Virus record (IMG/VR): IMGVR_UViG_3300010403_000001
Span: 1-64,000 of that record
DNA length: 64,000 nucleotides
Source of the DNA: a virus
Reading direction: 5' to 3' (one strand)
The translations under genes were made by a program, and so were the position numbers. A model generated the notes under the pieces. It was not told the DNA's origin and ran no database searches. It worked only from the letters and a program-made list of their open reading frames with translations. Shown piece by piece: positions 7,044-51,602 of this stretch (its first letter is position 1; the number at the start of each line of letters is the position of its first letter).

Positions 7044-8021
7044 TTACGCGTATTGAGTCGTGATCAGCTGGACGCAGTTGGGAGATACTGTTTTCAGTAC
7101 TCGGTTGCTGCGGATACGGAGCATATTGCCCCGACGCTTTTCATCGCGGTAGCTTTCTGAGGTGAACAAGCCGCCTGGCGAATCTGCATCCCACACGATC
7201 GTGCGGCCGACTCCACCATTCATGAAGTCTCCTTCAGCCCTGCGGACCAGTGCGATATAAGTGTTTGGCCACACTGGAACCACCGTGGTGGTGGGTGTAG
7301 CTTTTTTAAGTGAGGTGTCGTAGGATTTCTTAGCAATCAAGATTTCCTGCAACCCGAACACATTGGCGAACATCTGCTCAGTGATCTGGCTGCCACCCTG
7401 GTTTACGTTCAAGTAACCGTAAACGTAGGTTTGGAGTTTCTGTGACCGGCGAATTCTGTTCCACAGCGACAAGCTCATGACTGCAGTCGTTGGGACTTCT
7501 CCCAGGAAGGTCATGCGCTCGATTGCCGCATTCATATCCAGTGGAACATCAAACGTGGCGATGTTGGCTTCCGTGTAGGCTACGGTTGAGTTGGTAGCCG
7601 TGAAGGTTGAGGAATTGTAAAGGGTCGTTGCAATCTCAAGCTCGTAATCCAACATCAGTGAGTTCATCAACAGCTTGGAGGTGATAACCTCAGCGTCGAA
7701 GAAACTTTCCATCCGGCGAGCTACGACATCATCAACGCGCTCTTCCAAACCGAACTCTTCGGTCTGGTAGCTGTCCCACTCGAATTTACGAGTGAGTTCG
7801 TTGTAGGTGCCGGTCTCATTTCGTTTGGTGGAGCCGTAGCCAGTTCCCGCTTTCAGGAGCTCTGCAGCACCGATACGGAATTTAGGATAACGACCTACTT
7901 CACGTCCACTGGGATAGGTTGGGTAAATCAGTTGTCCGATGTAGAGTTTTTCCTGGGCAACTGCTTCCATCAACACTGTGCTGATGTCTGCCCTTGGTAC
8001 ACTGTCAGTTGTATTAAACAT
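7044..8021 (-). CDS. Major capsid protein (HK97 fold, lambda E-like)
   Basis: 325 aa, follows protease/scaffold and decoration genes; segments YQTEEFGLEERVDD and ESYRDEKRRGNMLRIR resemble lambda-E-type capsid proteins. Confidence 0.85.
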   Translation of the reverse strand: MFNTTDSVPRADISTVLMEAVAQEKLYIGQLIYPTYPSGREVGRYPKFRIGAAELLKAGTGYGSTKRNETGTYNELTRKFEWDSYQTEEFGLEERVDDVVARRMESFFDAEVITSKLLMNSLMLDYELEIATTLYNSSTFTATNSTVAYTEANIATFDVPLDMNAAIERMTFLGEVPTTAVMSLSLWNRIRRSQKLQTYVYGYLNVNQGGSQITEQMFANVFGLQEILIAKKSYDTSLKKATPTTTVVPVWPNTYIALVRRAEGDFMNGGVGRTIVWDADSPGGLFTSESYRDEKRRGNMLRIRSNRVLKTVSPNCVQLITTQYA

Positions 8022-8039: not shown

Positions 8040-8423
8040 TTATACGAAGATCACTCGGACAATTGCTCCGCTTGCAGCCGTAAAAGCGTCTACTGAGACT
8101 GCGACCACATTAGATCCACTGGGGACCAACATGCCTGCGTTCGCTGCATCCAACGCCAGGGTTGCACCTGCGGCCACTGCGGCACTCGATGCACCGATCA
8201 TTGCATAATGGACTCCGGAATACCGGCGATGAACGGCAATGGCTTTACCGAGGTAAACGCCATCCTCCTGCTTGGGCATGGCCCGGATCATGGTTCCGAT
8301 CATGACCGCGCCGTCGGATGAAGTTGCGATATCAGCTCCGGTCGAGGTCAGTTTAATGACCTTGTACTCCTGACCTGTCAGGTCGCCAGCTGCTTTAAGA
8401 CTGATTACATTATTGGTATTCAT
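8040..8423 (-). CDS. Capsid decoration / cement protein
   Basis: 127 aa (AAGDL..., AAVAAGATLALDAANAG, A..SGAIVRV) immediately upstream of the capsid gene. Confidence 0.7.
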   Translation of the reverse strand: MNTNNVISLKAAGDLTGQEYKVIKLTSTGADIATSSDGAVMIGTMIRAMPKQEDGVYLGKAIAVHRRYSGVHYAMIGASSAAVAAGATLALDAANAGMLVPSGSNVVAVSVDAFTAASGAIVRVIFV

Positions 8424-8441: not shown

Positions 8442-9230
8442 TTAGGCCGCCGTTGCCGGTTTGTTTTTCAGGGACTGAAGCCAGTCCGCGTGCATGGCGG
8501 GGTTTTCTTTCTGTGCAAGCAGGATAGCTTCACCCTCTGTTTTCCCGCTTGTTTTAAGCTGCTGGACCCGGACTTGAAATTCATGGAGCTGGCCATCGTC
8601 ATTAGCACTGAAGAGTCGCAGGCCGTTATCTACACCAGCCCTGACAGGGCGCGTGCCAGTCCTGTTAGCCAGGCGTAGAGCATCATTTTCTGCTTTGTAG
8701 CCCTCGGCCAGTTTAATGGCTTTGTCTCTCTGCTCTGCCAGGATCATAACTTTTTCCTCAATGGATTTAAGTTCGATCTCTTCTGCATCTCGTTTGGCCT
8801 GTAGCTCTTTGAGGGCTTGCTTATTTTTGAGTTGGATAACTTCCTTCTGTAGAGCGGCGAAGTTCGCAGCGCCACTGGTTCCACCTACGGCTTCACCTGC
8901 TACTCCTGCTACGACACCGGCAGGTTCACCTTGGACTTGAGCTTGTTCCTGGCCTTGGACTTGGGATTGCTCGCCTTCCATGCCGGCGAGAACTTCCTGG
9001 ACTGCGGCGTCGACTTCGGCGCGAGTAAGTCCAAGCTGGGCCAGATCTTCATCGCTTGCTTCCACGAGATCTTGCAATGAAGGCTCATTCTGCCCTCCAA
9101 AGTTCTCGTTCAAAACTTGTTCATGTTGCTCAATTCGTTCGTTGAGCTGATTAAGGGCGGCCATTACATCCTGTAGTGTTGGTTCAGGGTCTGCCACCTG
9201 TTCTTGTGCTTCCTGCTTTTCTTTGGCCAT
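8442..9230 (-). CDS. Nested in-frame scaffolding protein (internal start Met178, MAKEKQEAQ...)
   Basis: TTGACA-N14-ATG signature at 9250..9228, at the protease/coiled-coil boundary. Confidence 0.6.
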   Translation of the reverse strand: MAKEKQEAQEQVADPEPTLQDVMAALNQLNERIEQHEQVLNENFGGQNEPSLQDLVEASDEDLAQLGLTRAEVDAAVQEVLAGMEGEQSQVQGQEQAQVQGEPAGVVAGVAGEAVGGTSGAANFAALQKEVIQLKNKQALKELQAKRDAEEIELKSIEEKVMILAEQRDKAIKLAEGYKAENDALRLANRTGTRPVRAGVDNGLRLFSANDDGQLHEFQVRVQQLKTSGKTEGEAILLAQKENPAMHADWLQSLKNKPATAA

Positions 9231-9761
9231 GCCAATTTGAGAACTGTCAACTTCAGGGACAGAGAAAAGACCGGCATTAGCAGCAGGACGGATTACACAA
9301 TCAACAGACATAAGTTTCTCACATCTCGCAGCAAACTTACCATTGCCCAATGGCTCACCATTCATATTCCCTTTGGGTGGCTTGAACGCTGTAGACATAC
9401 CGAAACAGGTAGGCATCACTTCAGCACGCTCAAGGAGCTTGGGAGTTTCGTCGTGGCTTTTCAGGAGATGCCAGTCAGCACGCAGTTTGTCTCCGTCTCT
9501 TCGGAAACCAGTCAGGTAACCATTGAGGTCTTTGACTCCGCTACCATGATCCAGGCATACGGCCACTTTCCCGCGTTCTTTTGCTGATGCCTGGATTTGG
9601 TTTAGGAGCGTATCATCAACTTCCAGGTTGTGACCTTCAGCGGTCAATCCACCAGTGATAACACTGACTCCACGGATTACGGCATTTTGACGATCGATCG
9701 TTCCGGTTGTTCCGGTAAAAAGATCCTCACTTTTAAAACAGATTTCACTTTCGTTCGGCAT
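8442..9761 (-). CDS. Prohead protease fused to scaffolding domain
   Basis: N-terminal protease-like motifs (CLDHG, FGMST, SVDCVIRPAAN); C-terminal Q/E/A-rich coiled coil; position upstream of decoration and capsid genes. Confidence 0.8.
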   Translation of the reverse strand: MPNESEICFKSEDLFTGTTGTIDRQNAVIRGVSVITGGLTAEGHNLEVDDTLLNQIQASAKERGKVAVCLDHGSGVKDLNGYLTGFRRDGDKLRADWHLLKSHDETPKLLERAEVMPTCFGMSTAFKPPKGNMNGEPLGNGKFAARCEKLMSVDCVIRPAANAGLFSVPEVDSSQIGMAKEKQEAQEQVADPEPTLQDVMAALNQLNERIEQHEQVLNENFGGQNEPSLQDLVEASDEDLAQLGLTRAEVDAAVQEVLAGMEGEQSQVQGQEQAQVQGEPAGVVAGVAGEAVGGTSGAANFAALQKEVIQLKNKQALKELQAKRDAEEIELKSIEEKVMILAEQRDKAIKLAEGYKAENDALRLANRTGTRPVRAGVDNGLRLFSANDDGQLHEFQVRVQQLKTSGKTEGEAILLAQKENPAMHADWLQSLKNKPATAA

Positions 9762-17555: not shown

Positions 17556-20500
17556 TAGCAGCTACAGCCGCACCGGCAGTTGCTGGAACTGCAGCTAATC
17601 CAGTAGTTACCTTCTGATAGTTTTTGACCGGATTTCCTTTATATGCAATCAAGCGTCTGAAATAATTTGAATGCAGCGGTTCCTTGGTGGCCTCACGCAA
17701 TGCTTCTCTTTCATTATATCCCCTGAATCGTAAATCCTGGAGATGAGCACTGAGGACCTTTTGTCCCTTCTTGAGTTCTTTTACCACTTCAGGATTCTTT
17801 CTGCCGCGCCATTCACTAACAGCTTCCTTATGCCAGGAATCCAATGCCGAAGCGGGCGAATGCCTGAAAGCCGAATAATGCTCCAGGACGTGAGGATGTA
17901 TACCTGATTTAGGACTTCCAACATCCCAGATCTTTGGGGATTTACCAATAAGCCATTTGACGGGAGCGGATTCAGGATGACGCAATGCCGAACCGGTAAG
18001 CTTCCCAGTAATACCTTGGTTAAGAATATGTTGAGACGCTTCCAGATAATCAGCGACCTGCTTCCCATAGTTCGTTGGATTACCGGCTAATTTATCGATA
18101 CGCGATCGAAGTCCGATCCTGGCAAATTTACCAGCTCCTCTATACAAAGGAATCCCAGCTGCAGCTACTGCTAAACCCGCAGCCACATTGTGTTTTCTCT
18201 TAGGTTCCTGGAATCGAATCTCTTCCAATCTGGAACTTAATTCTTCCTTAGAGATTTTACCCTGAGCAACCTTTTTAAAGAAATCCTTTTCCTTCGCCTC
18301 GCCTACTTCCTTTTCTATCTGGGCCGGAGTCTTCATCTTACCAGTCACAGGATTGAATTTACTGTGTTCGTACTTAGGTGGAGTTGTCAGAGGCTTATCA
18401 CGCCACCTGGACAATTCTTCTCTGGCACCATGGAAGAACCCGCCAACTTTACCCAGCCCTGGAACATCCTTAGCATATGATCCACGCTTAAAACCTTCCA
18501 TGAGTTGCCCAATACGGCTTTGAGGATGTGCTTGCTTGGCCCAGTTAATAACTCCTCTACCACCCTTGATTGTGGCTATCAGTCCAGCAGTAGTGAGGGC
18601 TCCGGCCACCCATGGCTTTTCCCATTCGTTCTTTCGTGGACGACCGCGTGGATCAATGTTGGGTAGACCCTGACGCTTGAGATTAACATCCCTGAGCAAT
18701 CGATGTGTTCGGCCGGCATACTTTTTGACTTTCTGGGCCTGTCCGATAGTGCTGTAAGTTCTTCCGTACAGTTTCTTATGCGCCCATTCCTGCAGCCAAT
18801 CTGGACCCAGGTCGTCTGGGTCATCTGGCCTGACATCGAATTTCACCAGTTTAATCCGTGAGAGAAATGCATGTTTGGCTAGCTTCTTAAGTCCGTATCC
18901 AGCTAGAATAGTACCGCCAATAACTTCCGGAGCGAGCTCAACTCGTTTACCTCGCCAACTTCGTTCACCGAATTGATCTCTTGTAGTTTTGCCATACAGC
19001 CGAGCAGCCTTCTGGGTTGCTAAACCGATACCAGCACCAGCCAAAGTAGATTTAATTAATTTGGATGGTTTTCTTGCTGCCAGGGCACCGATACCAGCTC
19101 CGATTAATGTCGTGTGCCCATACAATCGGTCGGCTCGATCGATATCTCGTTCATGAATCTGCTTCATGTATCGATCACGAGCCACTATTTGGCGCTGACT
19201 CTGGAATTGAGTTAATTGCGATTCAGGAAGTAAGCCCTTCTGTTCAGCTTCCATTTCTTCTCGCTTTCTACGTTTGTTCTTTCTATGAGTGTATATCTTC
19301 TCGTATATCAATGGCAATGCAGCAACTCCACCGGCAACCGCCAGATCAGACTTAAGCCCAAACTGGATCAGTCTTTGCCTGGATGACATTTGTTGTTTCC
19401 TTCTTTTTTTCAGTTGTGCCAGAGTGAGTCCGACCAGGCCAGTCGCCGCACCTCCAACAAGACCGCCCACGGCGATTTTACGACCTATGCCGCTACCCTT
19501 AGGGGCAAACTTCTTAAAAAGAAGCTCACTGGCTGGATATGCTAATCCTCCTTCAATCGCTCCAATAGCAATGTCATGCGCTGTGTGATCCTGTGTTGTG
19601 CCAGCCAACTGAGCACGGACTTTATCCAGGGCACTGAACTGCACGTTTTGCCGACGGCCGTTATGCGGAGTAATGCCAATAGTTATGGTAGCGCGTTGCT
19701 CTCTGGGTTCTCTTGGTTTGGGTTGTCGAGGTTTATAGAGATTGAGGATCTCCCTGGCTTCATGCCGTTGATGCGCCCGTTTGTCGTAACGACCCAATGC
19801 ATATCCACCAACTGCACCACCAGCTAAAGTTCCGGCAGCGATCAATTTGAGTCTGCCGGCACGCCTGGCGCTCTCCTGCCCCAATCTTTCAGTCAGCTCA
19901 CCAGTCTGCCTTTCGTAGGTTGATTTTGCAGCAGTAACCCCTTCTTCACGTCCGAGTGTGTGACCCTTTTTGAATGCTTCCCCATGCTTAGCTGCATGTT
20001 CTGCACCAAGCTTTTCGGCCTGAGCTTTTAATGCTTCTTCTCCAAGATGTTCCCTGGTTTTTGCTTGCTCCCGTAGAGTTTTTATCACTCCAAGGTTCTT
20101 TGTATGGGTTTCTTGTAACGCTCGAAGCGCCCTCATGTCCATCGGCTTAATATCCTGGACTTTGCTACCACCAGCAGCCCTGATAAATTTCGTCCATTTC
20201 TGTCGAGCTATTTGAAATGTGGAAAATGGTTTAGCCTTTTTCCCAGCGAGTTTTTCGCTCTCAAGCCAGGTTCCAGGAATAGCTGTGGTGGATTTCGACA
20301 CACCTGTTTTCCCAGCCTGTCTGAAAACTTCCAAAGCTTCTTGCGCTTCACGCGGAATTGGAAACTTGGCAAACTGGATCTCTTTTAAGCGTGATTTCAT
20401 CTGCTGTGTTCGGCTGCGTTTGCGAGCTGCATGAATAGCCAAAGCGCCGCCGGCCAGTACTCCAGCGGCCCCGATACCAATCCCGAGTTTCCCAAGATGA

Positions 20501-21765
20501 GGGAAACCGGTTGCAGCTTCTGCTATCGGAGTTGTGAAAATCTTTCGTTCTTTCAAAATCTTCTGCTTAACCCCACTAAGTCCTGCAAACTTGCTGCGCT
20601 CGTACGTTGTATCCATGTGCCGCTTCAATTTCCGGATACGTCCAGGCGTAATTGGTTTGGTGGTTCTGCTGCCTTTTTGTAAAATATCCTGAATGCTGCT
20701 GACGCTAACCTCAGATAGCGGTGTGCCGCCATATTCATATGGTTTATCAGTGATTAATCCCATAGCTCCACGAGCCTGGGTTTTAATGTCTTCCGGACTT
20801 TTCCGAATCAGGAAATGCTGATGGATTTGTTTTTGGACTTCATGCTCTTCCTCTGGAGAGGCAGCAGATTTGAGTTGCTTATGTAATTTAGAAAGTTTGG
20901 ATTGCCAATCTCCCTGGTGTTCTTCAGCTATTTGGGTCATTCCTCTTGTGGCGATCCGGCTTAAACGTTCACCGGCATGAGTCCTGGCGGCCGTGGATGC
21001 CTCTTGTCGTTGTTTGGCGAGGCCCGATAGCCGCTTCTTGTATTCAACCATCCGTTCAGGATGAGCTCTGGCAGATTCAAGGCTGGCATTTTTGGCTCTG
21101 ATTATAGCCAGGCTTTCCCTTGCTTCCCCTGCCATGTAATCACGATGTAGCTTCATCTGACCCTGAATATGCTGCACTGTCTTTGAGCGTAATTCTCTGG
21201 GTCCAACCCTTTCTCCAGCATATTGCTCCTGAACTTCTTGCCTATGTCTCCCCCACACTTCACTTGTGGGAATTTTCTCTATCTCCGATTGGGCTCGAAC
21301 GTACTTCTTCCAATTCATCCGCTGCCGCTCGTAGACAGGAACGTCTTTAAATGTCTCGCCGGGCTTTATATCGGCTTCTTTAACCGTAGCCCACTGTTTA
21401 CCCTTGGGGGCGGAATATGGTTGAGCTTGCCCAGCAGCGAGAGGCCTTAACGCCTTAAGACGGGTCGCAGGTTTACCGAGTGGTTCTCCAGCTACCGGTT
21501 CCTTGAACCCACCTTCTACCTTCTGCCATCGGACAGGACGCCCAATGGTGTAGACCTGTTCAGGGTCCATCTTTTGGGATACTGCTTCTTTAATCTTTCG
21601 ACCGCTTACTGAAATGTTGTATTTGCTTTCCGGGGCATAAGCTGTGTGGCGTTCGCCGGCAGCGAATTTGATTTCGACGTTCAGCTTCCTGGCCAATCGC
21701 TTCAAAGCTGCAAGCGGGCGCACTTTACCTTCTGCGCGAGGCACTGATTCTGTGGTGTTGAACAC
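17518..21765 (-). CDS. Large basic polyprotein (1415 aa), probable internal head / ejection protein
   Basis: N-terminus mimics the capsid N-terminus; about 7 xxF junction motifs; several Gly/Ala-rich hydrophobic helices; lies between portal and protease. Confidence 0.65.
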   Translation of the reverse strand: MFNTTESVPRAEGKVRPLAALKRLARKLNVEIKFAAGERHTAYAPESKYNISVSGRKIKEAVSQKMDPEQVYTIGRPVRWQKVEGGFKEPVAGEPLGKPATRLKALRPLAAGQAQPYSAPKGKQWATVKEADIKPGETFKDVPVYERQRMNWKKYVRAQSEIEKIPTSEVWGRHRQEVQEQYAGERVGPRELRSKTVQHIQGQMKLHRDYMAGEARESLAIIRAKNASLESARAHPERMVEYKKRLSGLAKQRQEASTAARTHAGERLSRIATRGMTQIAEEHQGDWQSKLSKLHKQLKSAASPEEEHEVQKQIHQHFLIRKSPEDIKTQARGAMGLITDKPYEYGGTPLSEVSVSSIQDILQKGSRTTKPITPGRIRKLKRHMDTTYERSKFAGLSGVKQKILKERKIFTTPIAEAATGFPHLGKLGIGIGAAGVLAGGALAIHAARKRSRTQQMKSRLKEIQFAKFPIPREAQEALEVFRQAGKTGVSKSTTAIPGTWLESEKLAGKKAKPFSTFQIARQKWTKFIRAAGGSKVQDIKPMDMRALRALQETHTKNLGVIKTLREQAKTREHLGEEALKAQAEKLGAEHAAKHGEAFKKGHTLGREEGVTAAKSTYERQTGELTERLGQESARRAGRLKLIAAGTLAGGAVGGYALGRYDKRAHQRHEAREILNLYKPRQPKPREPREQRATITIGITPHNGRRQNVQFSALDKVRAQLAGTTQDHTAHDIAIGAIEGGLAYPASELLFKKFAPKGSGIGRKIAVGGLVGGAATGLVGLTLAQLKKRRKQQMSSRQRLIQFGLKSDLAVAGGVAALPLIYEKIYTHRKNKRRKREEMEAEQKGLLPESQLTQFQSQRQIVARDRYMKQIHERDIDRADRLYGHTTLIGAGIGALAARKPSKLIKSTLAGAGIGLATQKAARLYGKTTRDQFGERSWRGKRVELAPEVIGGTILAGYGLKKLAKHAFLSRIKLVKFDVRPDDPDDLGPDWLQEWAHKKLYGRTYSTIGQAQKVKKYAGRTHRLLRDVNLKRQGLPNIDPRGRPRKNEWEKPWVAGALTTAGLIATIKGGRGVINWAKQAHPQSRIGQLMEGFKRGSYAKDVPGLGKVGGFFHGAREELSRWRDKPLTTPPKYEHSKFNPVTGKMKTPAQIEKEVGEAKEKDFFKKVAQGKISKEELSSRLEEIRFQEPKRKHNVAAGLAVAAAGIPLYRGAGKFARIGLRSRIDKLAGNPTNYGKQVADYLEASQHILNQGITGKLTGSALRHPESAPVKWLIGKSPKIWDVGSPKSGIHPHVLEHYSAFRHSPASALDSWHKEAVSEWRGRKNPEVVKELKKGQKVLSAHLQDLRFRGYNEREALREATKEPLHSNYFRRLIAYKGNPVKNYQKVTTGLAAVPATAGAAVAATTRKDRNRVSVR

Positions 21766-21957
21766 GCCTCACCTAGGCATGTCAATCTGCCACCAAAAAT
21801 GAAAAATAACGGGATGTTCCCAAAACGAGGCTAAAAGAAAAAAATAGTATAAGAAAATCCTCGATTCAGAATGTCTGGCGATACTGTGTATTTTTAATGG
21901 AGTACACCAATCGCTGGTCAGCAAACCAACGAGAGTCGCAGACTCCATTCTGCAAAC

Positions 21958-22230
21958 ATGAAAGATAAAATGAGAAAGATGAAAGGTAATAACAATAAAG
22001 AAAAGGGCGAAGGCCACAAAGCACGATTTGCTGTTGTGGGGACATTCACAACCGTGATAGATGGAGAGAAATCCGAATTCAATCTGAATTGGGATGTTAC
22101 CCTTTCCATGGAAAACCTCGATTACGCCGTACGCGATATCGCGGGCAGCATTGCGCAAGTTGCCGGCAAGATCGCCAAGGATGGGATCAAGGGTGACGAC
22201 GGCGTCAGGCAAAAGGTAGCGGTTAGCTAA
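21958..22230 (+). CDS. Hypothetical protein
   Basis: First ORF of a plus-strand island. Confidence 0.5.
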   Translation: MKDKMRKMKGNNNKEKGEGHKARFAVVGTFTTVIDGEKSEFNLNWDVTLSMENLDYAVRDIAGSIAQVAGKIAKDGIKGDDGVRQKVAVS

Positions 22231-22524
22231 ACAACAAACCCCGCTGGCAGACCGGGTAATGTCTGCCAAACTTAAACCTGAAAACTGAAAGGAAAAAACC
22301 ATGACTGAAACAGCAAGGAAAAACAGAAGACTAAAACGAATCAAAACAACACCGTACCCAACGGAACATTTCGCAATTCGAGACTCGGCAGATCCCGATC
22401 CAACTCCAGCTCAGCAAATGATGGATCGAGACGACGATTATCAATATCGAAATGGCGCTTGGATCAACGATGTAAGTGACCGTTACGGAAGAACGTGTGA
22501 CGAATTCTAACCTGAAAGAAAAAC

Positions 22525-22788
22525 ATGGAAACTGAAACAAATAAGTATCACAAACAATTGAGCGATAAGAAATTACCGCTCACTGCAGAGGAGCTTCTTC
22601 ATATCATGCGTCCAGAGGTAGAAGAGATTCTACAAAGGCATGGATGGACAGAACCTCCCAGCCAATCACATCGGGCAGTCAAAGCTATAACCGAATGGGA
22701 GAATCCGCTCGGGAAGGATATGGCAGTGCTCCTGGATTTCCTGAAAGTGCATCGCACAGTTTGGATACTGGAAGGGAAACCAATATGA
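22525..22788 (+). CDS. Hypothetical protein
   Basis: 87 aa, coupled to the next ORF. Confidence 0.5.
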   Translation: METETNKYHKQLSDKKLPLTAEELLHIMRPEVEEILQRHGWTEPPSQSHRAVKAITEWENPLGKDMAVLLDFLKVHRTVWILEGKPI

Positions 22789-23069
22789 ACATACAGAACA
22801 TAGAGGACATAATAAAACAAGCATTCAAGATTGAACAGGATAAGAAGTTGAGGTACCCGGCCGGTACAATTATCGCTCATCAAAGCGATCGTATGGCTTA
22901 CGAGCTACTTCGTTATGAAGGTGATGAAGCGGTGGTGAGTCACAATAATATTGAGAAACGGTTCCCGGCACAAGAGATCGTAAACATAAACACCGTGAAG
23001 GATATCGTTTGCGAGATCTATACCTGCGGAAGTTATGCCCCTGATAGGCACATCATGGTCAAACTATAG
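22785..23069 (+). CDS. Hypothetical protein
   Basis: Start refined to the ATGA overlap (MNIQNIED). Confidence 0.5.
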   Translation: MNIQNIEDIIKQAFKIEQDKKLRYPAGTIIAHQSDRMAYELLRYEGDEAVVSHNNIEKRFPAQEIVNINTVKDIVCEIYTCGSYAPDRHIMVKL

Positions 23070-23074
23070 GTTAT

Positions 23075-23338
23075 ATGCCATCACTGGAAATGCACTGCCA
23101 GGACTGCGTAGAAAAGCTTGGCGAACCGTTCACATACGTCCATCAGTGGCTGGATCAGCTCTGGCCAGTCCTTGGACCGCAACATCGTGCCGTTCGGCAC
23201 AATGATACAGGCGTAGATTACATCCGGCTAAAATGGGGCGACAGGGCAGCCCAGGCGGCCGTGTTACACATCAAACTAGACGAGGATTTCGTCTACCAAA
23301 ACGGTATTTGGGTTAGGGCCAAAATGGACGCATTTTGA
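23075..23338 (+). CDS. Small His-rich protein (DUF6915-like, HD-related)
   Basis: MHC..C...VHQWLD...HRAVRHN...LHIKLD pattern. Confidence 0.55.
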   Translation: MPSLEMHCQDCVEKLGEPFTYVHQWLDQLWPVLGPQHRAVRHNDTGVDYIRLKWGDRAAQAAVLHIKLDEDFVYQNGIWVRAKMDAF

Positions 23339-23351
23339 TCATACCCTTACC

Positions 23352-23405
23352 TAGCGTAGAGGGTCCGGAAAAGGGTTAATATTACCCCTTTTCCGGACTA
23401 CGCTA
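23352..23405. promoter_or_regulatory. Operator-like palindrome, extended copy 2
   Basis: TAGCGTAG-AGG-GTCCGGAAAAGGGTTAATATTACCCCTTTTCCGGAC-TACGCTA. Confidence 0.65.
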
Positions 23406-23431
23406 AACCAATAAAAACAACCACAAACAAT

Positions 23432-23695
23432 ATGGAAACAATCACAGAAGGATTCAAAAAATTCATGAAGGAGGTCTGGCCAGCAATAAGTGCAGAATCT
23501 CGACAATATAAGGTGTGCAGAAACGTGTTTTTTGCCAGTGTGCTATGGACATTGGGGACATTAAGCGAGTCGATTAAATCCGGTGAGAAACAACCAGTAG
23601 ATGTATTACGGAAACAGCTCGAAGACTTTCTAAAACAATTAGACGCAGAGAAAGCGATCCGTGAAGACATACTCAAAGCATGGATGGGGGAATAA
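23432..23695 (+). CDS. Hypothetical protein
   Basis: 87 aa with an A/C-rich leader. Confidence 0.55.
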   Translation: METITEGFKKFMKEVWPAISAESRQYKVCRNVFFASVLWTLGTLSESIKSGEKQPVDVLRKQLEDFLKQLDAEKAIREDILKAWMGE

Positions 23696-23916
23696 TGGTA
23701 GAAATCAAAATCACCATTACCGAGGAGTCAGACGGCTGTATTCAAACTCACGTGAGTGCACATAGTATCGGCACACTCAGGGAAAGCATGATGGGGCAGG
23801 CAATGGCTAGAACCTGTGCTCATGTCGCTGAATGGATTGCGAAAAGAGTAGGTCAACCGGAGGGAGTTATCGTGGAGGACAAAATAGAAATCATTCCACT
23901 GGAGGACAAGAAATAA

Positions 23917-24240
23917 ATGCCACTAATAATAGCAAAACCTAATCGTGGCCGCAGGGATATAATGATTATCCTTGGGCCAGAAAATGTAGAGCGTATGCAG
24001 CAAAAAGATCCGTTCGAACTAATAGTTCCGCAATTGCCATTCGATGAACCAATTGGGACTATTAGAGTCAGTATTGCTACCGAGGATGAACTTAAAGAAT
24101 TCGAACAGCTCGGTAAACAAGGCAAGACCGACGAGGCCATAGAGAAGGCTACTGCTGGATGGAAATTCCGGCCAGAATTAGGGGACCACGATCGTGGACC
24201 TGAAATTTTATTCAGGAAAGACAAAAACCAACAACAATGA
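23917..24240 (+). CDS. Hypothetical protein
   Basis: 107 aa in the operon. Confidence 0.55.
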   Translation: MPLIIAKPNRGRRDIMIILGPENVERMQQKDPFELIVPQLPFDEPIGTIRVSIATEDELKEFEQLGKQGKTDEAIEKATAGWKFRPELGDHDRGPEILFRKDKNQQQ

Positions 24241-24536
24241 AAACAAAACTACCAAAAAGAATAAAAGTGAAGTTCACAGAAGAAGACCGGATCAGTGCGG
24301 GAAGATACACTGATTCAGCAAACTGTCTGATGGCCACCGCTCTAAAGCGCATGGGATATAATACTAACCGAAAGATTGGTGTATATCCAGGCATCGTCCA
24401 TATCGGACCAGGCAGGTACAGGGGCGAGGTCTATGCCCACACAGTGAAACGAAACGATATGGACTCAAAGCCGTACTACGAGGAATCCGTAGTCGGCACA
24501 ACCATCACACTGACTCGTGAACACGCCAGACGATAA
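24237..24536 (+). CDS. Paralog-family protein (CL(M/I)ATALKRMGY)
   Basis: Similar to 37325..37645. Confidence 0.65.
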   Translation: MKTKLPKRIKVKFTEEDRISAGRYTDSANCLMATALKRMGYNTNRKIGVYPGIVHIGPGRYRGEVYAHTVKRNDMDSKPYYEESVVGTTITLTREHARR

Positions 24537-24763
24537 GCTCAAGGATCGTATCGGTAAATGCCGGTGCGGTCATTCCGGGGATGCCTCGCCTAGTGATCAT
24601 GTGGATCTGACCACTCTGGGGTTCGTCCAGCGAGGTCATGGGCATTGCACCAAATGCACATGTAAACAATTCACGTGGGTGGGACTTATGGAGAAGTAAG
24701 GAGGTGATACCACATGTTCGGAATACCCATCAATCCGACACATAGGTAATGCCGAGCTTAAGT

Positions 24764-24979
24764 TCAATCCTGAAAGCTCGGCACTTCATAAACCCGCTTG
24801 CTTCCATCAGGATATGTAATCAATCCCTCACCATTGCTGCGGGTAAGGGTGGTCCAGGTCATTTGGACCAATGGATGCCAGTGGCGCTGTTCCCAGAAGA
24901 ACTTCTGCCTGTCAGGCGAGAGGGTTTCGAGTTTGCTGAGGTTTTTAAGGTATTGCTCGGTGAACGAGACGATACTCAT
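24764..24979 (-). CDS. Small protein coupled to the portal gene
   Basis: ATGA overlap with the portal stop codon. Confidence 0.5.
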   Translation of the reverse strand: MSIVSFTEQYLKNLSKLETLSPDRQKFFWEQRHWHPLVQMTWTTLTRSNGEGLITYPDGSKRVYEVPSFQD

Positions 24980-26811
24980 TTACGTGCTGGTTTCTTCTTA
25001 GATACGGATTTCGATTTTGCTCCGGACGGCCGGCTGCCGTTTCCTGGTGCTGCTGGTTTGGGATGTAGGGCTTTGATGATTCCGAGATCTGGTTCTGGGA
25101 CCATTTGTTCGGCCATGGCTTCAGGGATTCCGAACACTTTCTTTAATGTATTCTTAGCGCTGTCTGGGTCAAGTTTACCATCACCGACAGCCTTCAAGAT
25201 ATCGACAAGTTGCTTCACGCCCTTGTCACCGATTGCTTCAATTGTCCCGGGTTTCGGTGGTGGCACTGGTCCTGTGACCATTGCAGCCTTCTGTGTGGTG
25301 ATGTCCGGATACAGCATTCTGGCGAATACCTCCACCGGTACGTCGGTCTCCGCTCCGATCTGAATTGCTTCATTGGCAGTGGTTGCATTGGAAAGGAACA
25401 CCTCACGTGGGCTCTTGCCGTATTTCCCGGTTATGTCACTGACTGGAATAAGCCCGGCGCTTACGGCTGCGATATCGGCATCCATCTCATAACCCACATC
25501 GGTTTGGATGGATAGACCGAAATGCCATTCGCATTTTCTCCAAAGAGGATGCGGAGGAAGGACACCCAGAGCAATGCCTTGAGCGATTACCTTTTGGCGG
25601 ATACGGTTTAACACCTTATGCTCAAGTAGCTGCTGCCAGTATTCGATCCTCCGCAAAGCTTGCTGAACTTCAATACGGGCAGTCACTCCACCCAGGGTTG
25701 CTAGATCCCATAGGAACCCAAATGGTAAATCCAATGACACTGCCATTTTACGAATCAGGATTTGGACAAACTCCATGAATGCACCACTGGGACGAGCAGG
25801 CGGAGCAAGCATGTTGAAGACTTCGCCTTCTGCCATCCTCATGATCTTTCCCCATTCGGCCGGTTGGGTTGGTGTTCCATCTGCAGTCTTGTCCTTCCAA
25901 GCAGTAGCACCTTGGTTAGCAAATGGATCTTTGATCCCAATCAGTGCGGCCCATTGACTCTGGGTTTTGCCGGCAATCTTTTCCGATTCAATCCATTCCC
26001 TGATGTCCCTTGCGTCATTTAGTAAGCGGAGTAGTTTGGTTCGTCCGCGATATTCATCAGGGCGTTCAGGATCATGAAGGTGGATAAATGAACCAAACTC
26101 AATCTCTTGAGGCTTCAAGTACTGATTCGTTCGAGTTCTTTGAAAAATTCTATAGAACTGAATTCGACCGGTTTCTGGATCGAGCCCTACGCCTCCCACG
26201 TAATTCTCCTGAACGAGCTGCTCTAACGGTGATCCTATGCGATCTGCTTCAACAGCTTGTACACAAAACTCGCCAGTTGGAGAAAGCTCAGGAGCAATTT
26301 CAATCCAGCCATGATCCCCATCAATCAGGAAGCCCATAAATCCCATCTGGACCATCTTGAGCCATCGGCTGCGACCACTGAGATCGCAACGAACTGAACC
26401 ATCGTCATTGGGTTCATCTCCGCACCATCCGTGATAGAATGAATCGTATGCGTCGTCTATTTGCTCATCTCCAGTAAGAGATCGTGAATGGATCTTACCG
26501 CATACATACAGGGCGATCCTGGCCATCATTCCGCCAATGAATTCGAACTTTACCAGATCCCTGGCATCCCACATCGCTTTGAGACGGTCGCGGTTACTGC
26601 GCCAGGTTTCAGCAGATGCCTGAGCGAATAAACCGCCACTACCGCTTCGGCGTTCAGGGTTATCGTTGTATCCGTATGAGAATTGATGCTCGATCGTTCG
26701 AGCTTTCATCCGGACCAGTTTCTGGACTGGATCAAAGAATCCAATGACCTTGTCCCAGGCAGTAAGGCGTTGATCTGGCCTTTTGCCGTCCTCTAATTTC
26801 TTCAGATCCAT
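24976..26811 (-). CDS. Portal protein, lambda family
   Basis: 611 aa; QAVEADRI, GGVGLDPETGRIQFYRI, HLHDPERPDEYRGRT; follows a gpW-like gene. Confidence 0.9.
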   Translation of the reverse strand: MDLKKLEDGKRPDQRLTAWDKVIGFFDPVQKLVRMKARTIEHQFSYGYNDNPERRSGSGGLFAQASAETWRSNRDRLKAMWDARDLVKFEFIGGMMARIALYVCGKIHSRSLTGDEQIDDAYDSFYHGWCGDEPNDDGSVRCDLSGRSRWLKMVQMGFMGFLIDGDHGWIEIAPELSPTGEFCVQAVEADRIGSPLEQLVQENYVGGVGLDPETGRIQFYRIFQRTRTNQYLKPQEIEFGSFIHLHDPERPDEYRGRTKLLRLLNDARDIREWIESEKIAGKTQSQWAALIGIKDPFANQGATAWKDKTADGTPTQPAEWGKIMRMAEGEVFNMLAPPARPSGAFMEFVQILIRKMAVSLDLPFGFLWDLATLGGVTARIEVQQALRRIEYWQQLLEHKVLNRIRQKVIAQGIALGVLPPHPLWRKCEWHFGLSIQTDVGYEMDADIAAVSAGLIPVSDITGKYGKSPREVFLSNATTANEAIQIGAETDVPVEVFARMLYPDITTQKAAMVTGPVPPPKPGTIEAIGDKGVKQLVDILKAVGDGKLDPDSAKNTLKKVFGIPEAMAEQMVPEPDLGIIKALHPKPAAPGNGSRPSGAKSKSVSKKKPARK

Positions 26812-27107
26812 TAGTAGGTCAGCTGGTCAGTAGTTCCTGCAGGTTGCCCTTGCTGAATACCTGCACCCTGACTAAAGTCAGTCAAAATTGTTCCCTCGTA
26901 TGGAGTAGTGCGTTCATTGAGAACAAATACTACAGCGCTTAATTGCGAGGAAAGCTCCCGCAGATCGCGGGTGTATGATTTTCCGCCAACCGTCTGGCTG
27001 GTGAATGTTCCGAGCGCAAGAATAGATGCCTTGAGCTTATCACGCAAAGCTTGCAATTCTTCCGTCGTGTAGCTACGAAAGACAAGAAGCCAATTACCAT
27101 CCGCCAT
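26811..27107 (-). CDS. Head completion / adaptor (gpW-like)
   Basis: SQTVGGKSYTRDLRELSSQL, directly upstream of the portal. Confidence 0.7.
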   Translation of the reverse strand: MADGNWLLVFRSYTTEELQALRDKLKASILALGTFTSQTVGGKSYTRDLRELSSQLSAVVFVLNERTTPYEGTILTDFSQGAGIQQGQPAGTTDQLTY

Positions 27108-37324: not shown

Positions 37325-37645
37325 ATGAAGAAATTGCCAAATACAATAACAGTGACAATACAGGAAATAGACCGGCAGTGCGCTGGGCACTTCCAGTACG
37401 GATCAGGTTGCCTTATCGCAACAGCACTGAAGAGAATGGGGTATAATCACGATACTCCTATTTCAGTCTGCCTGGACTACGTCGAGATCGGCGGGATACG
37501 ATATAATCCCAACAAATCAATCGGGATACGTGCCCTGCATGCAATAAATGGTCGTGATCAGTCTAACATGCTAGCGGATGGAATCCACTACCGAGAGGGA
37601 GTGGTAGGAAAAGTCATTAAACTACAAAAGGAGGTGAAAGTATGA
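37325..37645 (+). CDS. Paralog-family protein
   Basis: CLIATALKRMGY shared with 24237..24536. Confidence 0.65.
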   Translation: MKKLPNTITVTIQEIDRQCAGHFQYGSGCLIATALKRMGYNHDTPISVCLDYVEIGGIRYNPNKSIGIRALHAINGRDQSNMLADGIHYREGVVGKVIKLQKEVKV

Positions 37646-37989
37646 AGGTAACAATACCAGTAAAAAGAAAACACATCGATGGATGTCAAATGAGATCCGT
37701 TAATGATTGCGTTATGGCGCGTGCCATGACCGATGCATTACCGTTGGCAGCCGAGGTTACTGTTGGAGTATCAGCGGCCCATCTATGGGAGATGAATGGT
37801 CGGCTGGAAACTATCCGCCTTCCAGAGGAAGTAAGTGCGTTTATCCACAGGATGGTCTTAACCGTTCCTGAAGGCAGGTACGCGATCGAGGAGCGTAGCT
37901 TCGAAGTCGAGATTCCTGATCAGTTCTGCGCCAAAGAACCAGTCAGGATAGTCCAACCCAAACAGGAGGAAGAGCCAGTACCGGCTTAA
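37642..37989 (+). CDS. Paralog-family protein
   Basis: Tandem paralog of 37993 (MKVTI.V..KHI, LP.EV..FI, AKEPVR..KQEE). Confidence 0.7.
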   Translation: MKVTIPVKRKHIDGCQMRSVNDCVMARAMTDALPLAAEVTVGVSAAHLWEMNGRLETIRLPEEVSAFIHRMVLTVPEGRYAIEERSFEVEIPDQFCAKEPVRIVQPKQEEEPVPA

Positions 37990-37992
37990 AAC

Positions 37993-38349
37993 ATGAAAGT
38001 AACAATAAACGTGAGTAAGAAACATATCAGGGAAGGTGATCCACGATACAGTTCTTGCTGTATCGTTCAGAGGGCAATTAGGGATGCCATACCGTTGGCA
38101 TTAGAAGTTGGTGTTTCAATAGACCACTACGCACTGAGATCTTTCGATGGCGTTTGGACCCGGCTCTATCTTCCAAGAGAGGTAGAGAAATTCATCTGGA
38201 GAACACTTGATTGCCATCTTCCATCAAGATTGAGATGGCTTGTATTAAGTCCATTCTCGTTTGAACTGGATGTGCCTGATGAGTTCGTAGCCAAAGAACC
38301 AGTCAGGCCCGCCAAACAGGAGGAGGTGCTTCAATGTGTTACATCGTAG
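37993..38349 (+). CDS. Paralog-family protein
   Basis: Tandem paralog of 37642. Confidence 0.7.
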   Translation: MKVTINVSKKHIREGDPRYSSCCIVQRAIRDAIPLALEVGVSIDHYALRSFDGVWTRLYLPREVEKFIWRTLDCHLPSRLRWLVLSPFSFELDVPDEFVAKEPVRPAKQEEVLQCVTS

Positions 38350-50512: not shown

Positions 50513-50860
50513 ATGAGGATGGGTCATTGGATTCTTGATGAAAACAGAATCCCAAGGCAGGTAGATCTTTATACCTGGGCTAAATGGATGGGGAAACTGG
50601 ATCGCATTGTCCGCCAGGAATGGGTGGGCAATATCTGGATCTCAACTGTATTCCTGGGTCTGGATTACAACTTCAGTAATACTGGTCCACCCATTCTATG
50701 GGAGACCATGATGTTCAGTAACCGTAAGAATGTAGATCAAAACTATCAGACTAGATGTGCTGGCTCATGGGAGCAGGCTGAAGCCATGCACGAAACCGCA
50801 GTAAGGGAAGCCTGCAAAATCGAACAAATTAACTATCAACCATTAGAACAAAGACAATGA
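50513..50860 (+). CDS. Phage protein (ISTVFLGLD..PILWETMMF)
   Basis: 115 aa. Confidence 0.65.
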   Translation: MRMGHWILDENRIPRQVDLYTWAKWMGKLDRIVRQEWVGNIWISTVFLGLDYNFSNTGPPILWETMMFSNRKNVDQNYQTRCAGSWEQAEAMHETAVREACKIEQINYQPLEQRQ

Positions 50861-51213
50861 AAGGAATAATAATACCAAAATTACCACGAAACGAAATGCC
50901 TGAAGGATTTAATTGGCTCACTGTCCTCAAAGACTTAGCCGACGGAGCACCAATAGACCAACAGTCATATACTAATCTTTGCACGATGTCTGGAAACTGG
51001 CCTACGTGCGCATGTGGACAAGCATGCTCCGCTTTATTAAAACCGGATGGAGATTGTGAGCCACGTGATGGTGAACTCTTCTCTCTTGGATTGAAGTTCC
51101 ATGGAAATATTGAATGCCGTCATTGGTCACAGGCTTTGAAGACATTCCATCAAATTGAGGAGCGATCATTCATACTGCTCAAAGATTTAGGTGCCATCGA
51201 TATAGAAGAATAA
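50857..51213 (+). CDS. WPTCACGQ-family protein, paralog 1
   Basis: Tandem paralog of 51243. Confidence 0.7.
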   Translation: MKGIIIPKLPRNEMPEGFNWLTVLKDLADGAPIDQQSYTNLCTMSGNWPTCACGQACSALLKPDGDCEPRDGELFSLGLKFHGNIECRHWSQALKTFHQIEERSFILLKDLGAIDIEE

Positions 51214-51242: not shown

Positions 51243-51602
51243 ATGAAAACATTAGTAATACCACCGCTTAAGGTGATGGAGGATGGGTATAATAAGTTGC
51301 CGAATGGATTCAATTGGCTAGCAGTACTCAAAGATCTCGCGGCCGGTGCCGTAATAGACGGGAATTCGTTCGATACCCTGGTAGAGATGGCCAATATGTG
51401 GCCTACGTGCGCATGTGGGCAGTTGTGCTCAGTTCTTCCACGAAAGGAGCCATATAATGAGCCCGTTGATCGAACGCTGTATTCTTTAGGGCTTGATTTC
51501 TGTTATGCAATTGAAGAGACCCGATGGACAGAAGCGATGGATTTATTCCATCAGATTGAGGCCCGGGCAACGGAACTTATTATAGAGATGGATCACAAAT
51601 GA
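51243..51602 (+). CDS. WPTCACGQ-family protein, paralog 2
   Basis: Shares GFNWL.VLKDLA.GA.ID and WPTCACGQ. Confidence 0.7.
   Translation: MKTLVIPPLKVMEDGYNKLPNGFNWLAVLKDLAAGAVIDGNSFDTLVEMANMWPTCACGQLCSVLPRKEPYNEPVDRTLYSLGLDFCYAIEETRWTEAMDLFHQIEARATELIIEMDHK

What the first reader, a model, noticed from the sequence alone, without database searches (positions are those of the whole stretch)
21730..21765. The 1415-aa polyprotein starts with a copy of the major capsid protein N-terminus
Seen: the large protein begins MFNTTESVPRAE and the capsid protein (8021) begins MFNTTDSVPRAD, 10 of 12 identical with two D/E swaps. The codons differ almost everywhere (GTG TTC AAC ACC ACA GAA TCA GTG CCT CGC versus ATG TTT AAT ACA ACT GAC AGT GTA CCA AGG), so the match is held at protein level and is not a recent DNA duplication. 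Inference: the cargo protein mimics the capsid N-arm to take its binding site on the scaffold or shell and be co-assembled into the prohead.
Basis: partly seen in the sequence, partly recalled or inferred. Interest (0 to 1): 0.85.

Follow-up and report, generated by a model that had tools for sequence, protein, structure and literature searches.

The report
Capsid N-terminus copy on head polyprotein
A giant head-module protein of an uncultured 80-kb phage starts with a conserved, protein-level copy of the first 12 residues of the phage's own major capsid protein. It is most likely a loading address for getting the protein into the capsid, but neither binding nor packaging has been shown.

Summary
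The 1415-aa ORF (window 17518-21765, minus strand, GTG start) begins fMet-FNTTESVPRAE. The HK97-fold major capsid protein (MCP, 7044-8021) begins MFNTTDSVPRAD. That is 10 of 12 residues, with 11 of 12 codons different, and the similarity stops exactly at residue 12. Chance is excluded.

The GTG is the true start. It carries the phage's TTGACA-N14-start signature, an in-frame stop lies two codons upstream, and the peptide is conserved in relatives.

Nine related large proteins, down to about 40% identity, keep the peptide. It is always at the free N-terminus and always in front of a leader ending in I-x-F. That leader motif recurs at the module joints of the polyprotein.

The copy is optional. 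Sister large proteins start directly with the leader, and 20 other virus records of this capsid family carry the motif only on the capsid protein. The two N-termini do not co-vary, because the capsid one is almost invariant.

Best reading (about 0.4): an N-terminal docking address that uses the partner of the capsid N-arm tip in the prohead and is later cut off with the leader. Main rival: a shared recognition signal for an N-terminal processing enzyme. Binding remains untested.

Earlier notes of this scan, on other DNA, describe scaffold-tail mimic tags. This would be the capsid-side counterpart.

The parts
21730..21765 (-). Codons 1-12 of the large protein (LP): GTG start plus FNTTESVPRAE, the copy of the capsid N-terminus
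21664..21729 (-). LP residues 13-34: G-K linker and a basic amphipathic leader ending in E-I-K-F. A variable-length linker follows, then the first module. F34 is the candidate protease cut site
   Evidence: Residues 20-34 are 60% invariant. Relatives have insertions of 0-15 residues just after F34
21780..21785 (-). TTGACA 14 nt upstream of the GTG, the start signature shared by late genes. The in-frame TGA at 21769-21771 closes the upstream frame
17518..21765 (-). LP, 1415 aa. A modular head-module protein with repeats of a leader-like S-R-L-x-x-I-x-F motif followed by a Gly-rich hydrophobic stretch. No Pfam or PHROG family
7986..8021 (-). Codons 1-12 of the major capsid protein, MFNTTDSVPRAD. 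It is a low-confidence, coil-like tip in the AF2 model, before the N-arm helix 13-26
7044..8021 (-). Major capsid protein, 325 aa, HK97 fold, lambda gpE-like
8442..9761 (-). Prohead protease-scaffold fusion, 439 aa. The N-domain has invariant H44, H72 and S123. It is followed by an acidic coiled coil and a conserved C-terminal tail. A nested scaffold start lies at 9230
8040..8423 (-). 127-aa cement/decoration-like protein (weak match to Phage_cement_2)
24976..26811 (-). Portal protein, lambda family. This gene opens the head module that holds LP

Best explanation
The first 12 residues of the large head-module protein (LP) are a functional, selectively maintained copy of the near-invariant N-terminal tip of the major capsid protein. 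The tip lies just ahead of the capsid N-arm helix. Inferred mechanism: the copy lets LP engage the same partner that the capsid tip engages while the prohead is built. That partner could be the scaffold part of the protease-scaffold protein or a neighbouring capsid subunit. LP is thereby co-assembled into the prohead. The leader that follows, ending I-x-F at residue 34, is then cut by the prohead protease. The same motif at the internal module joints is cut too, releasing the cargo modules inside the head. Shown here: the copy exists, is translated, is conserved at protein level, is strictly N-terminal and is clade-restricted. Inferred: docking, packaging and cleavage.
For: The copy ends sharply at residue 12, and 11 of 12 codons differ. 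Nine LP lineages keep it (window, L022, P0003, P0004, P0005, P0006, P0129, P0132, P0135), with invariant F2, T4, P9, R10 and E12 in the six-sequence alignment. The same positions are invariant or near-invariant in 120 capsid homologues down to 59% identity. So one constraint could act on both peptides. The peptide is never internal in LPs, unlike the leader motif, which points to a need for a free N-terminus as in the capsid protein. LP lies between the portal and protease-scaffold genes in every relative. The homologous first module is always preceded by a leader ending h-x-F, whether that leader is N-terminal or internal. The same L-H-E-F motif is conserved in the scaffold tail. This is the layout expected of protease-processed head cargo, as with the T4 capsid targeting sequence (PMC3012670). 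In solved procapsids the capsid N-arm lies on the inner face and is the scaffold's docking site, and a competitor protein is known to use that interface (80alpha/SaPI1, PMC5644958). The AF2 model places residues 1-12 as a low-confidence, coil-like tip before helix 13-26. This fits a segment that folds only on a partner.
Against: The two N-termini do not co-vary in five capsid/LP pairs. The copy drifts (N3D, D6 to E or N, S7P) at positions that the capsid protein never changes. The copy is dispensable: closely related LPs (P0133 and P0134 against P0132) start directly with the leader. LPs of G003 and G004, and 17 more records of the capsid family, have no second copy. Only the 12-residue tip is copied, not the N-arm helix that makes the scaffold contacts in 80alpha. 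Packaging of LP has not been demonstrated. The partner of the capsid tip is unknown.
Confidence: 0.4

Rival explanations
1. Shared processing or recognition signal. The 12-mer is read by one enzyme that acts on free N-termini of both proteins. This could be a phage or host protease that trims after the acidic residue 12, or an N-terminal modifying enzyme or chaperone. The precedent is staphylococcal phage 80alpha, where capsid protein, scaffold and ribosomal protein L27 share an N-terminal motif cut by host Prp. In this reading no docking role is needed.
For: There is a published case of a capsid protein sharing its N-terminal motif with another head protein as a cleavage signal (PMC5744158). 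The peptide is strictly N-terminal. An acidic residue is invariant at position 12 in both proteins, followed by different residues (G-K against I-S-T). The phage encodes a prohead protease.
Against: No third substrate in the genome carries the peptide. A general protease site would be expected on scaffold, portal or the other cargo proteins. Those proteins carry the h-x-F leader instead. No Prp homologue is present in the phage. Nothing shows that the capsid protein is trimmed.
Confidence: 0.25
2. Shell-subunit mimicry. The LP tip takes the place of a capsid N-arm tip in the lattice itself, for example in the strand-exchange sheet with a neighbour's E-loop and the cement protein. This would anchor a small fixed number of LP copies at sites where an N-arm is missing, such as around the portal vertex.
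For: In lambda, the nearest solved relative of this capsid protein, the gpE N-arm contributes a strand to a sheet with the gpD N-terminus and a neighbour's E-loop (PMC5701804). A cement-like gene lies next to the capsid gene. LP follows the portal gene.
Against: That sheet is on the outer face of the mature lambda shell, while LP looks like internal or ejected cargo, with Gly-rich hydrophobic stretches and protease-type joints. No structural data exist for this family. The extreme tip was modelled at pLDDT about 34.
Confidence: 0.12
3. No assembly role. The peptide is a relic of an old recombination with the capsid gene 5' end, or it serves expression or stability. Examples would be an effect of the nascent peptide on early elongation, or protection of the aromatic second residue from N-degron pathways.
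For: The copy is optional among relatives. It is more variable than the capsid original: between strains about 96% identical in DNA, 7 of 36 nt differ within it, against 3.8% on average.
Against: A relic would not keep F2, T4, P9, R10, E12, G13 and K14 invariant across LPs that are only 48-63% identical overall, with saturated synonymous sites. An RNA-level role is excluded by 11 of 12 differing codons. LP uses a GTG start, which argues against tuning for high expression.
Confidence: 0.1

Closest known systems
Phage T4 capsid targeting sequence (CTS) on internal proteins IPI-III and Alt (PMC3012670)
   Same: A short N-terminal peptide on otherwise unrelated head cargo. It is followed by a prohead-protease site, and it is thought to load proteins into the scaffold core before being removed.
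   Different: The T4 CTS is not a copy of the capsid protein's own N-terminus. Here the tag copies the capsid tip, sits on one polyprotein only, and is placed in front of a separate leader/cut motif (h-x-F). Loading and cleavage are not shown here.
Staphylococcal phage 80alpha: capsid protein, scaffold and L27 share an N-terminal motif cut by host Prp (PMC5744158)
   Same: The major capsid protein and a second head protein begin with the same short conserved peptide.
   Different: In 80alpha the shared peptide contains the F|A cut site and is read by a host cysteine protease. Here the shared 12-mer has no such site. The capsid protein lacks the h-x-F leader, and no Prp gene is in the phage.
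SaPI1 CpmB competing with the 80alpha scaffold for the capsid N-arm site (PMC5644958)
   Same: A protein gains access to the capsid-scaffold interface by resembling one of the two natural partners.
   Different: CpmB resembles the scaffold tail, so it mimics the other side of the interface, and it comes from a parasite of the phage. Here the phage's own cargo resembles the capsid side.
Polyvalent proteins of phages and conjugative elements (Iyer et al. 2017, PMC5512222)
   Same: A giant multi-module protein encoded in the head module, probably packaged and processed. One LP relative (P0003) carries R2K ATP-grasp Pfam domains at its C-terminus.
   Different: The window's LP has no recognisable enzyme domain. 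No capsid N-terminus tag was recovered for that class in my literature searches.
Scaffold-tail mimic cargo tags noted by this scan on other phage genomes (e1-5702871, e1-5882469, e1-5377639; unchecked AI notes)
   Same: Cargo proteins carry a copy of a short terminal peptide of a core head-assembly protein, next to a protease site.
   Different: Those tags copy the C-terminal tail of the scaffold and sit on many proteins. This one copies the N-terminus of the capsid protein and sits on one protein.

Membership tests
HK97-fold major capsid protein, lambda gpE-like (for the 325-aa protein) | Sequence or fold match to known major head proteins, and position at the end of the portal-protease-scaffold-cement block | tested here: met
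   phrog_1005 at 1e-27. Foldseek 3bjq at 4.5e-9 and the lambda procapsid 7vi9 at 1e-4. Gene order.
T4-type capsid targeting sequence | Short peptide at the extreme N-terminus of a head-module cargo protein | tested here: met
   Residues 1-12, never internal. LP lies between the portal and the protease-scaffold gene.
T4-type capsid targeting sequence | Removed by the prohead protease at a consensus site just downstream | not testable with these tools
   A candidate site h-x-F at residue 34 is conserved and recurs at module joints and in the scaffold tail. No cleavage data exist.
T4-type capsid targeting sequence | Necessary and sufficient to load a protein into the prohead | not testable with these tools
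   Needs an experiment.
T4-type capsid targeting sequence | Shared by several unrelated cargo proteins of the phage | tested here: not met
   Only LP and the capsid protein carry it. There are exactly two copies in G000 and in G001.
Prp-type shared N-terminal cleavage leader (80alpha) | Same N-terminal motif on the capsid protein and another head protein | tested here: met
Prp-type shared N-terminal cleavage leader (80alpha) | F|A cut site inside the shared motif | tested here: not met
   The shared 12-mer has no F-A. LP has F34-A35 outside the shared part. The capsid protein has no equivalent.
Prp-type shared N-terminal cleavage leader (80alpha) | Prp (PF04327) protease available | tested here: inconclusive
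   Absent from the phage genome. The host is unknown. Capsid relatives occur in Verrucomicrobiota MAGs.
Polyvalent proteins | Several recognisable effector or enzyme domains in one polypeptide | tested here: not met
   No Pfam or PHROG hit for the window's LP. Only the relative P0003 has R2K ATP-grasp domains.

The most novel reading that the evidence does not exclude
The LP tip is a true structural stand-in for a capsid subunit's N-arm tip. It plugs into the lattice sites that lack an N-arm donor, for example the ring of hexamers around the portal, where a pentamer is missing. The phage would thus load a fixed small number of polyprotein copies next to the exit channel. This would be copy-number-controlled cargo loading by mimicry of the shell subunit itself, a principle not described for any virus.
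Probability: 0.12. Interest if true: 0.85.

Novelty: new variant of a known kind. Interest (0 to 1): 0.6.

Why it matters
If the 12-mer is a loading address, it shows a second route to the same end as the T4 targeting sequence and the scaffold-tail tags. Cargo would enter the head by imitating the capsid protein's own docking tip rather than the scaffold. That would identify the near-invariant first 12 residues of this large, uncultured capsid family (more than 360 homologues) as an interaction module. It would also give a very short portable tag for packaging foreign proteins into HK97-fold shells. Finally, it would explain how a membrane-active-looking polyprotein is brought into the prohead. 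If the peptide is instead a shared processing signal, it points to an unknown N-terminal maturation step of the capsid protein.

Tried and rejected
1. Complex prediction with the protease-scaffold alignment A2 and LP residues 1-60 (A3) gave 'no answer'. It counts neither for nor against binding.

Capsid/LP pairs on Logan contigs could therefore be made only by identical longest-contig length (68896, 76030, 76442, 78967). That pairing is an inference.

3. tblastn against the 50,697 GenBank phage records found no relative of either protein.

4. Pattern scans of IMG/VR for LP-type N-termini returned only the three contigs already known.

6. The PDB sequence search with the capsid profile found nothing. 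The Pfam search of the protease-scaffold found nothing significant.

7. The Atlas search of LP module 977-1185 gave only unnamed viral clusters below the useful score.

8. Gene conversion between the two 12-mer coding segments is rejected. The codons differ in the window and in L022, and the capsid codons themselves vary freely among relatives.

9. Read-through from the upstream 191-aa frame is rejected. That frame is a TTG-start ORF with no family. G001 has only about 100 nt between the portal and LP genes, with its own stop before the GTG.

Full report
**Observation**

On the minus strand, the 1415-aa ORF 17518-21765 begins GTG-TTC-AAC-ACC-ACA-GAA-TCA-GTG-CCT-CGC-GCA-GAA, which reads (fM)FNTTESVPRAE. 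The 325-aa ORF 7044-8021 begins MFNTTDSVPRAD.
- With the GTG read as the initiator, 10 of 12 residues are identical and both differences are D/E swaps.
- 22 of 36 nt agree and 11 of 12 codons differ.
- BLASTP finds no similarity beyond residue 12.
- Among about 1.05 million pairs of candidate N-terminal 11-mers in the whole 79.7-kb genome, only this pair and one pair of tandem paralogs reach 9/11.
- No third copy exists in the genome.

**Is the peptide translated?**

The only start codon available is the GTG.
- A TGA lies in frame two codons upstream.
- The same holds in a 96%-identical strain (L022/L070), in a 99% fragment (L071) and, with a different stop, in the 78.9-kb relative G001.
- The GTG is preceded at exactly 14 nt by TTGACA. 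I checked it: 10 of the 19 TTGACA sites in the genome, and 16 of 32 in G001, lie 13-17 nt before the start of an ORF of at least 60 aa. These include the LP orthologue of G001, again at 14 nt.
- The peptide is conserved in amino acids, with synonymous changes, among relatives.

**Context**

The window is part of a complete virus record with direct terminal repeats.
- The 325-aa protein is the major capsid protein: phrog_1005 at 1e-27.
- Its AF2 model (mean pLDDT 62) has the HK97 fold and is closest to PDB 3bjq and lambda gpE.
- In the model, residues 1-12 are coil at pLDDT about 34, and the N-arm helix spans residues 13-26.
- The gene order is conserved in relatives: portal (lambda family), LP, several proteins with leaders of the type L-D-x-L-I-x-F, a 439-aa protein, a 127-aa cement-like protein, then the capsid protein.
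- The 439-aa protein has an N-terminal domain with invariant H44, H72 and S123, an acidic coiled coil and a conserved C-terminal tail. I read it as a prohead protease fused to the scaffold. That reading is an inference, because no family model matched.
- An internal TTGACA-N14-ATG at 9230, conserved in G001, would give a nested scaffold protein as in lambda C/Nu3.

**Anatomy of the LP N-terminus**

In six aligned LPs the order is 12-mer, G-K, a basic amphipathic leader ending E-I-K-F (residue 34), then a variable linker with 0-15 inserted residues, then the first module.
- Residues 2-14 are 54% invariant and residues 20-34 are 60% invariant, against 18% for the whole protein.
- The leader-like motif recurs inside LP in front of each module.
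- It also heads the neighbouring stand-alone proteins and appears as L-H-E-F in the scaffold tail.
- Module order differs between the window and G001. In G003 the module that is first in the window is second, and it is preceded there by M-S-S-K-S-R-I-I-R-F.
This supports the earlier notes e1-6023150 and e1-6023164, which describe a cargo polyprotein with protease-type joints. No cleavage has been measured.

**Distribution**

Searches of the large protein collections found these LP homologues that begin with the peptide:

| LP | N-terminus |
|---|---|
| window | FNTTESVPRAE |
| L022 | FDTTDSIPRAE |
| P0003 | FDTMDSVPRSE |
| P0005 | FDTTDSVPRSE |
| P0004 | FDTSNPVPRSE |
| P0132 | FDTSNPVPRSE |
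| P0006/G001 | FDTSNPVPRTE |
| P0129 | FDTSFPVPRSE |
| P0135 (fragment) | FNTTDSVPRD... |

- In three of them the gene caller used an upstream ATG that lies inside the TTGACATG motif. The invariant V at the GTG position argues for the GTG start.
- The peptide is never internal.
- Sister LPs with the same first module start directly with a leader and have no 12-mer: P0130, P0133/P0139, P0134 and P0136.
- The LPs of G003 and G004 start with another module.
- In 17 further virus records of the capsid family the motif occurs exactly once, at the capsid start. One more record had no exact match.
The copy is therefore real and conserved, but it is an optional add-on placed in front of the leader.

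**Co-variation**

The capsid N-terminus, M-[YF]-N-T-[TVSA]-D-[SA]-[VIL]-P-R-x-D-I-S-T-x-L-M-E-A-V, is almost invariant in 120 homologues down to 59% identity.

I could make five capsid/LP pairs. The window and G001 pairs come from shared DNA records; the other three are matched only by identical longest-contig length (68896, 76030, 76442), which is an inference.

There is no co-variation. LP always has F2 whether the capsid protein has F or Y. LP drifts at positions 3, 6 and 7, where the capsid protein does not. What the two peptides share is the set of kept positions: aromatic 2, T4, V/I 8, P9, R10 and acidic 12.

**Mechanism**

The data require a constraint that acts on the protein, on a free N-terminus, and on the same residues in both proteins.

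I favour docking (about 0.4). In solved procapsids the N-arm lies on the inner face and is the scaffold's binding site, and that interface is known to be exploited by a competitor (PMC5644958). N-terminal tags followed by a protease site load cargo in T4 (PMC3012670).

The main rival (about 0.25) is a shared processing or recognition signal, as in 80alpha, where capsid protein, scaffold and L27 share a Prp-cut leader (PMC5744158). Against this rival:
- the 12-mer contains no F|A site;
- no other head protein carries it;
- the phage has no Prp gene.

A lattice-mimic variant (about 0.12) follows from lambda, where the gpE N-arm strand pairs with a neighbour's E-loop and gpD (PMC5701804).

A relic or expression role (about 0.1) fits the optional distribution but not the pattern of invariant residues.

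**What did not work**

The GenBank phage collection holds no relative of either protein.

**Host**

Capsid relatives at 55-58% identity lie on contigs binned with Verrucomicrobiota MAGs. This is only a hint.

**Verdict**

The feature is real, statistically robust and evolutionarily maintained. It is a new variant of the capsid-cargo address idea, in which the tag copies the capsid protein's own N-terminal tip. Its function remains inferred.

Noticed in passing
window 9230 (minus strand), inside 8442-9761; G001 75790: An internal TTGACA-N14-ATG in the protease-scaffold gene would give a nested 262-aa scaffold-only protein. The arrangement is conserved in relative G001 (280 aa) and resembles lambda C/Nu3.
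   Followed up: partly
window minus strand: starts at 27107, 21765, 17048, 12055, 9761, 9230, 2565, 1805; also 65589 and 73295 of the full genome: TTGACA lies 13-17 nt before start codons. This holds for 10 of 19 TTGACA sites in this genome and 16 of 32 in G001. The spacing is too short for a sigma-70 -35 box of a leaderless mRNA, so the signal is unexplained.
   Followed up: partly
window 17518-21765 against G001 66418-70689: The LP modules are shuffled between relatives. In G001 the window segments appear in the order 1-714, 983-1169, 845-981, 728-797, 1182-1411. Each joint carries the S-R-L-x-x-I-x-F motif, and the scaffold tail has L-H-E-F.
   Followed up: partly
P0003 (LP relative, 1567 aa), C-terminus: The precomputed Pfam domains are PF14243 and PF18299 (R2K ATP-grasp). 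So some LP relatives carry an enzyme module, as polyvalent proteins do.
   Followed up: no
window 21730-21765 against L022 6001-6036: Between strains about 96% identical in DNA, 7 of the 36 nt of the 12-mer differ (3 amino-acid changes), against 3.8% over the whole gene. Other comparably dense clusters of differences exist in the gene, so this may not be special.
   Followed up: partly
L048 8276-9961, L051 8344-9972, L065 5261-6889: In three distant relatives the protease-scaffold frame runs on without a stop into what looks like the cement protein, giving an ORF of 543-562 aa. This could be a fusion or a frame artefact.
   Followed up: no
window 50857-51213 and 51243-51602; 37642-37989 and 37993-38349 (plus strand): These are two pairs of adjacent small ORFs that share 8-9 of 11 residues at matching candidate start positions, so they look like tandem paralogs.
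   Followed up: no
L067, L068, L069 (genome contigs): Capsid relatives at 55-58% identity lie on contigs binned into Verrucomicrobiota MAGs (Verrucomicrobiaceae, Pedosphaera, Verrucomicrobiia). This is a possible host phylum for the family.
   Followed up: no
window 21766-24975: About 3.2 kb with mostly plus-strand small ORFs separates the portal and LP genes. In G001 the same two genes are only about 100 nt apart, so the window carries an inserted antisense island here.
   Followed up: no
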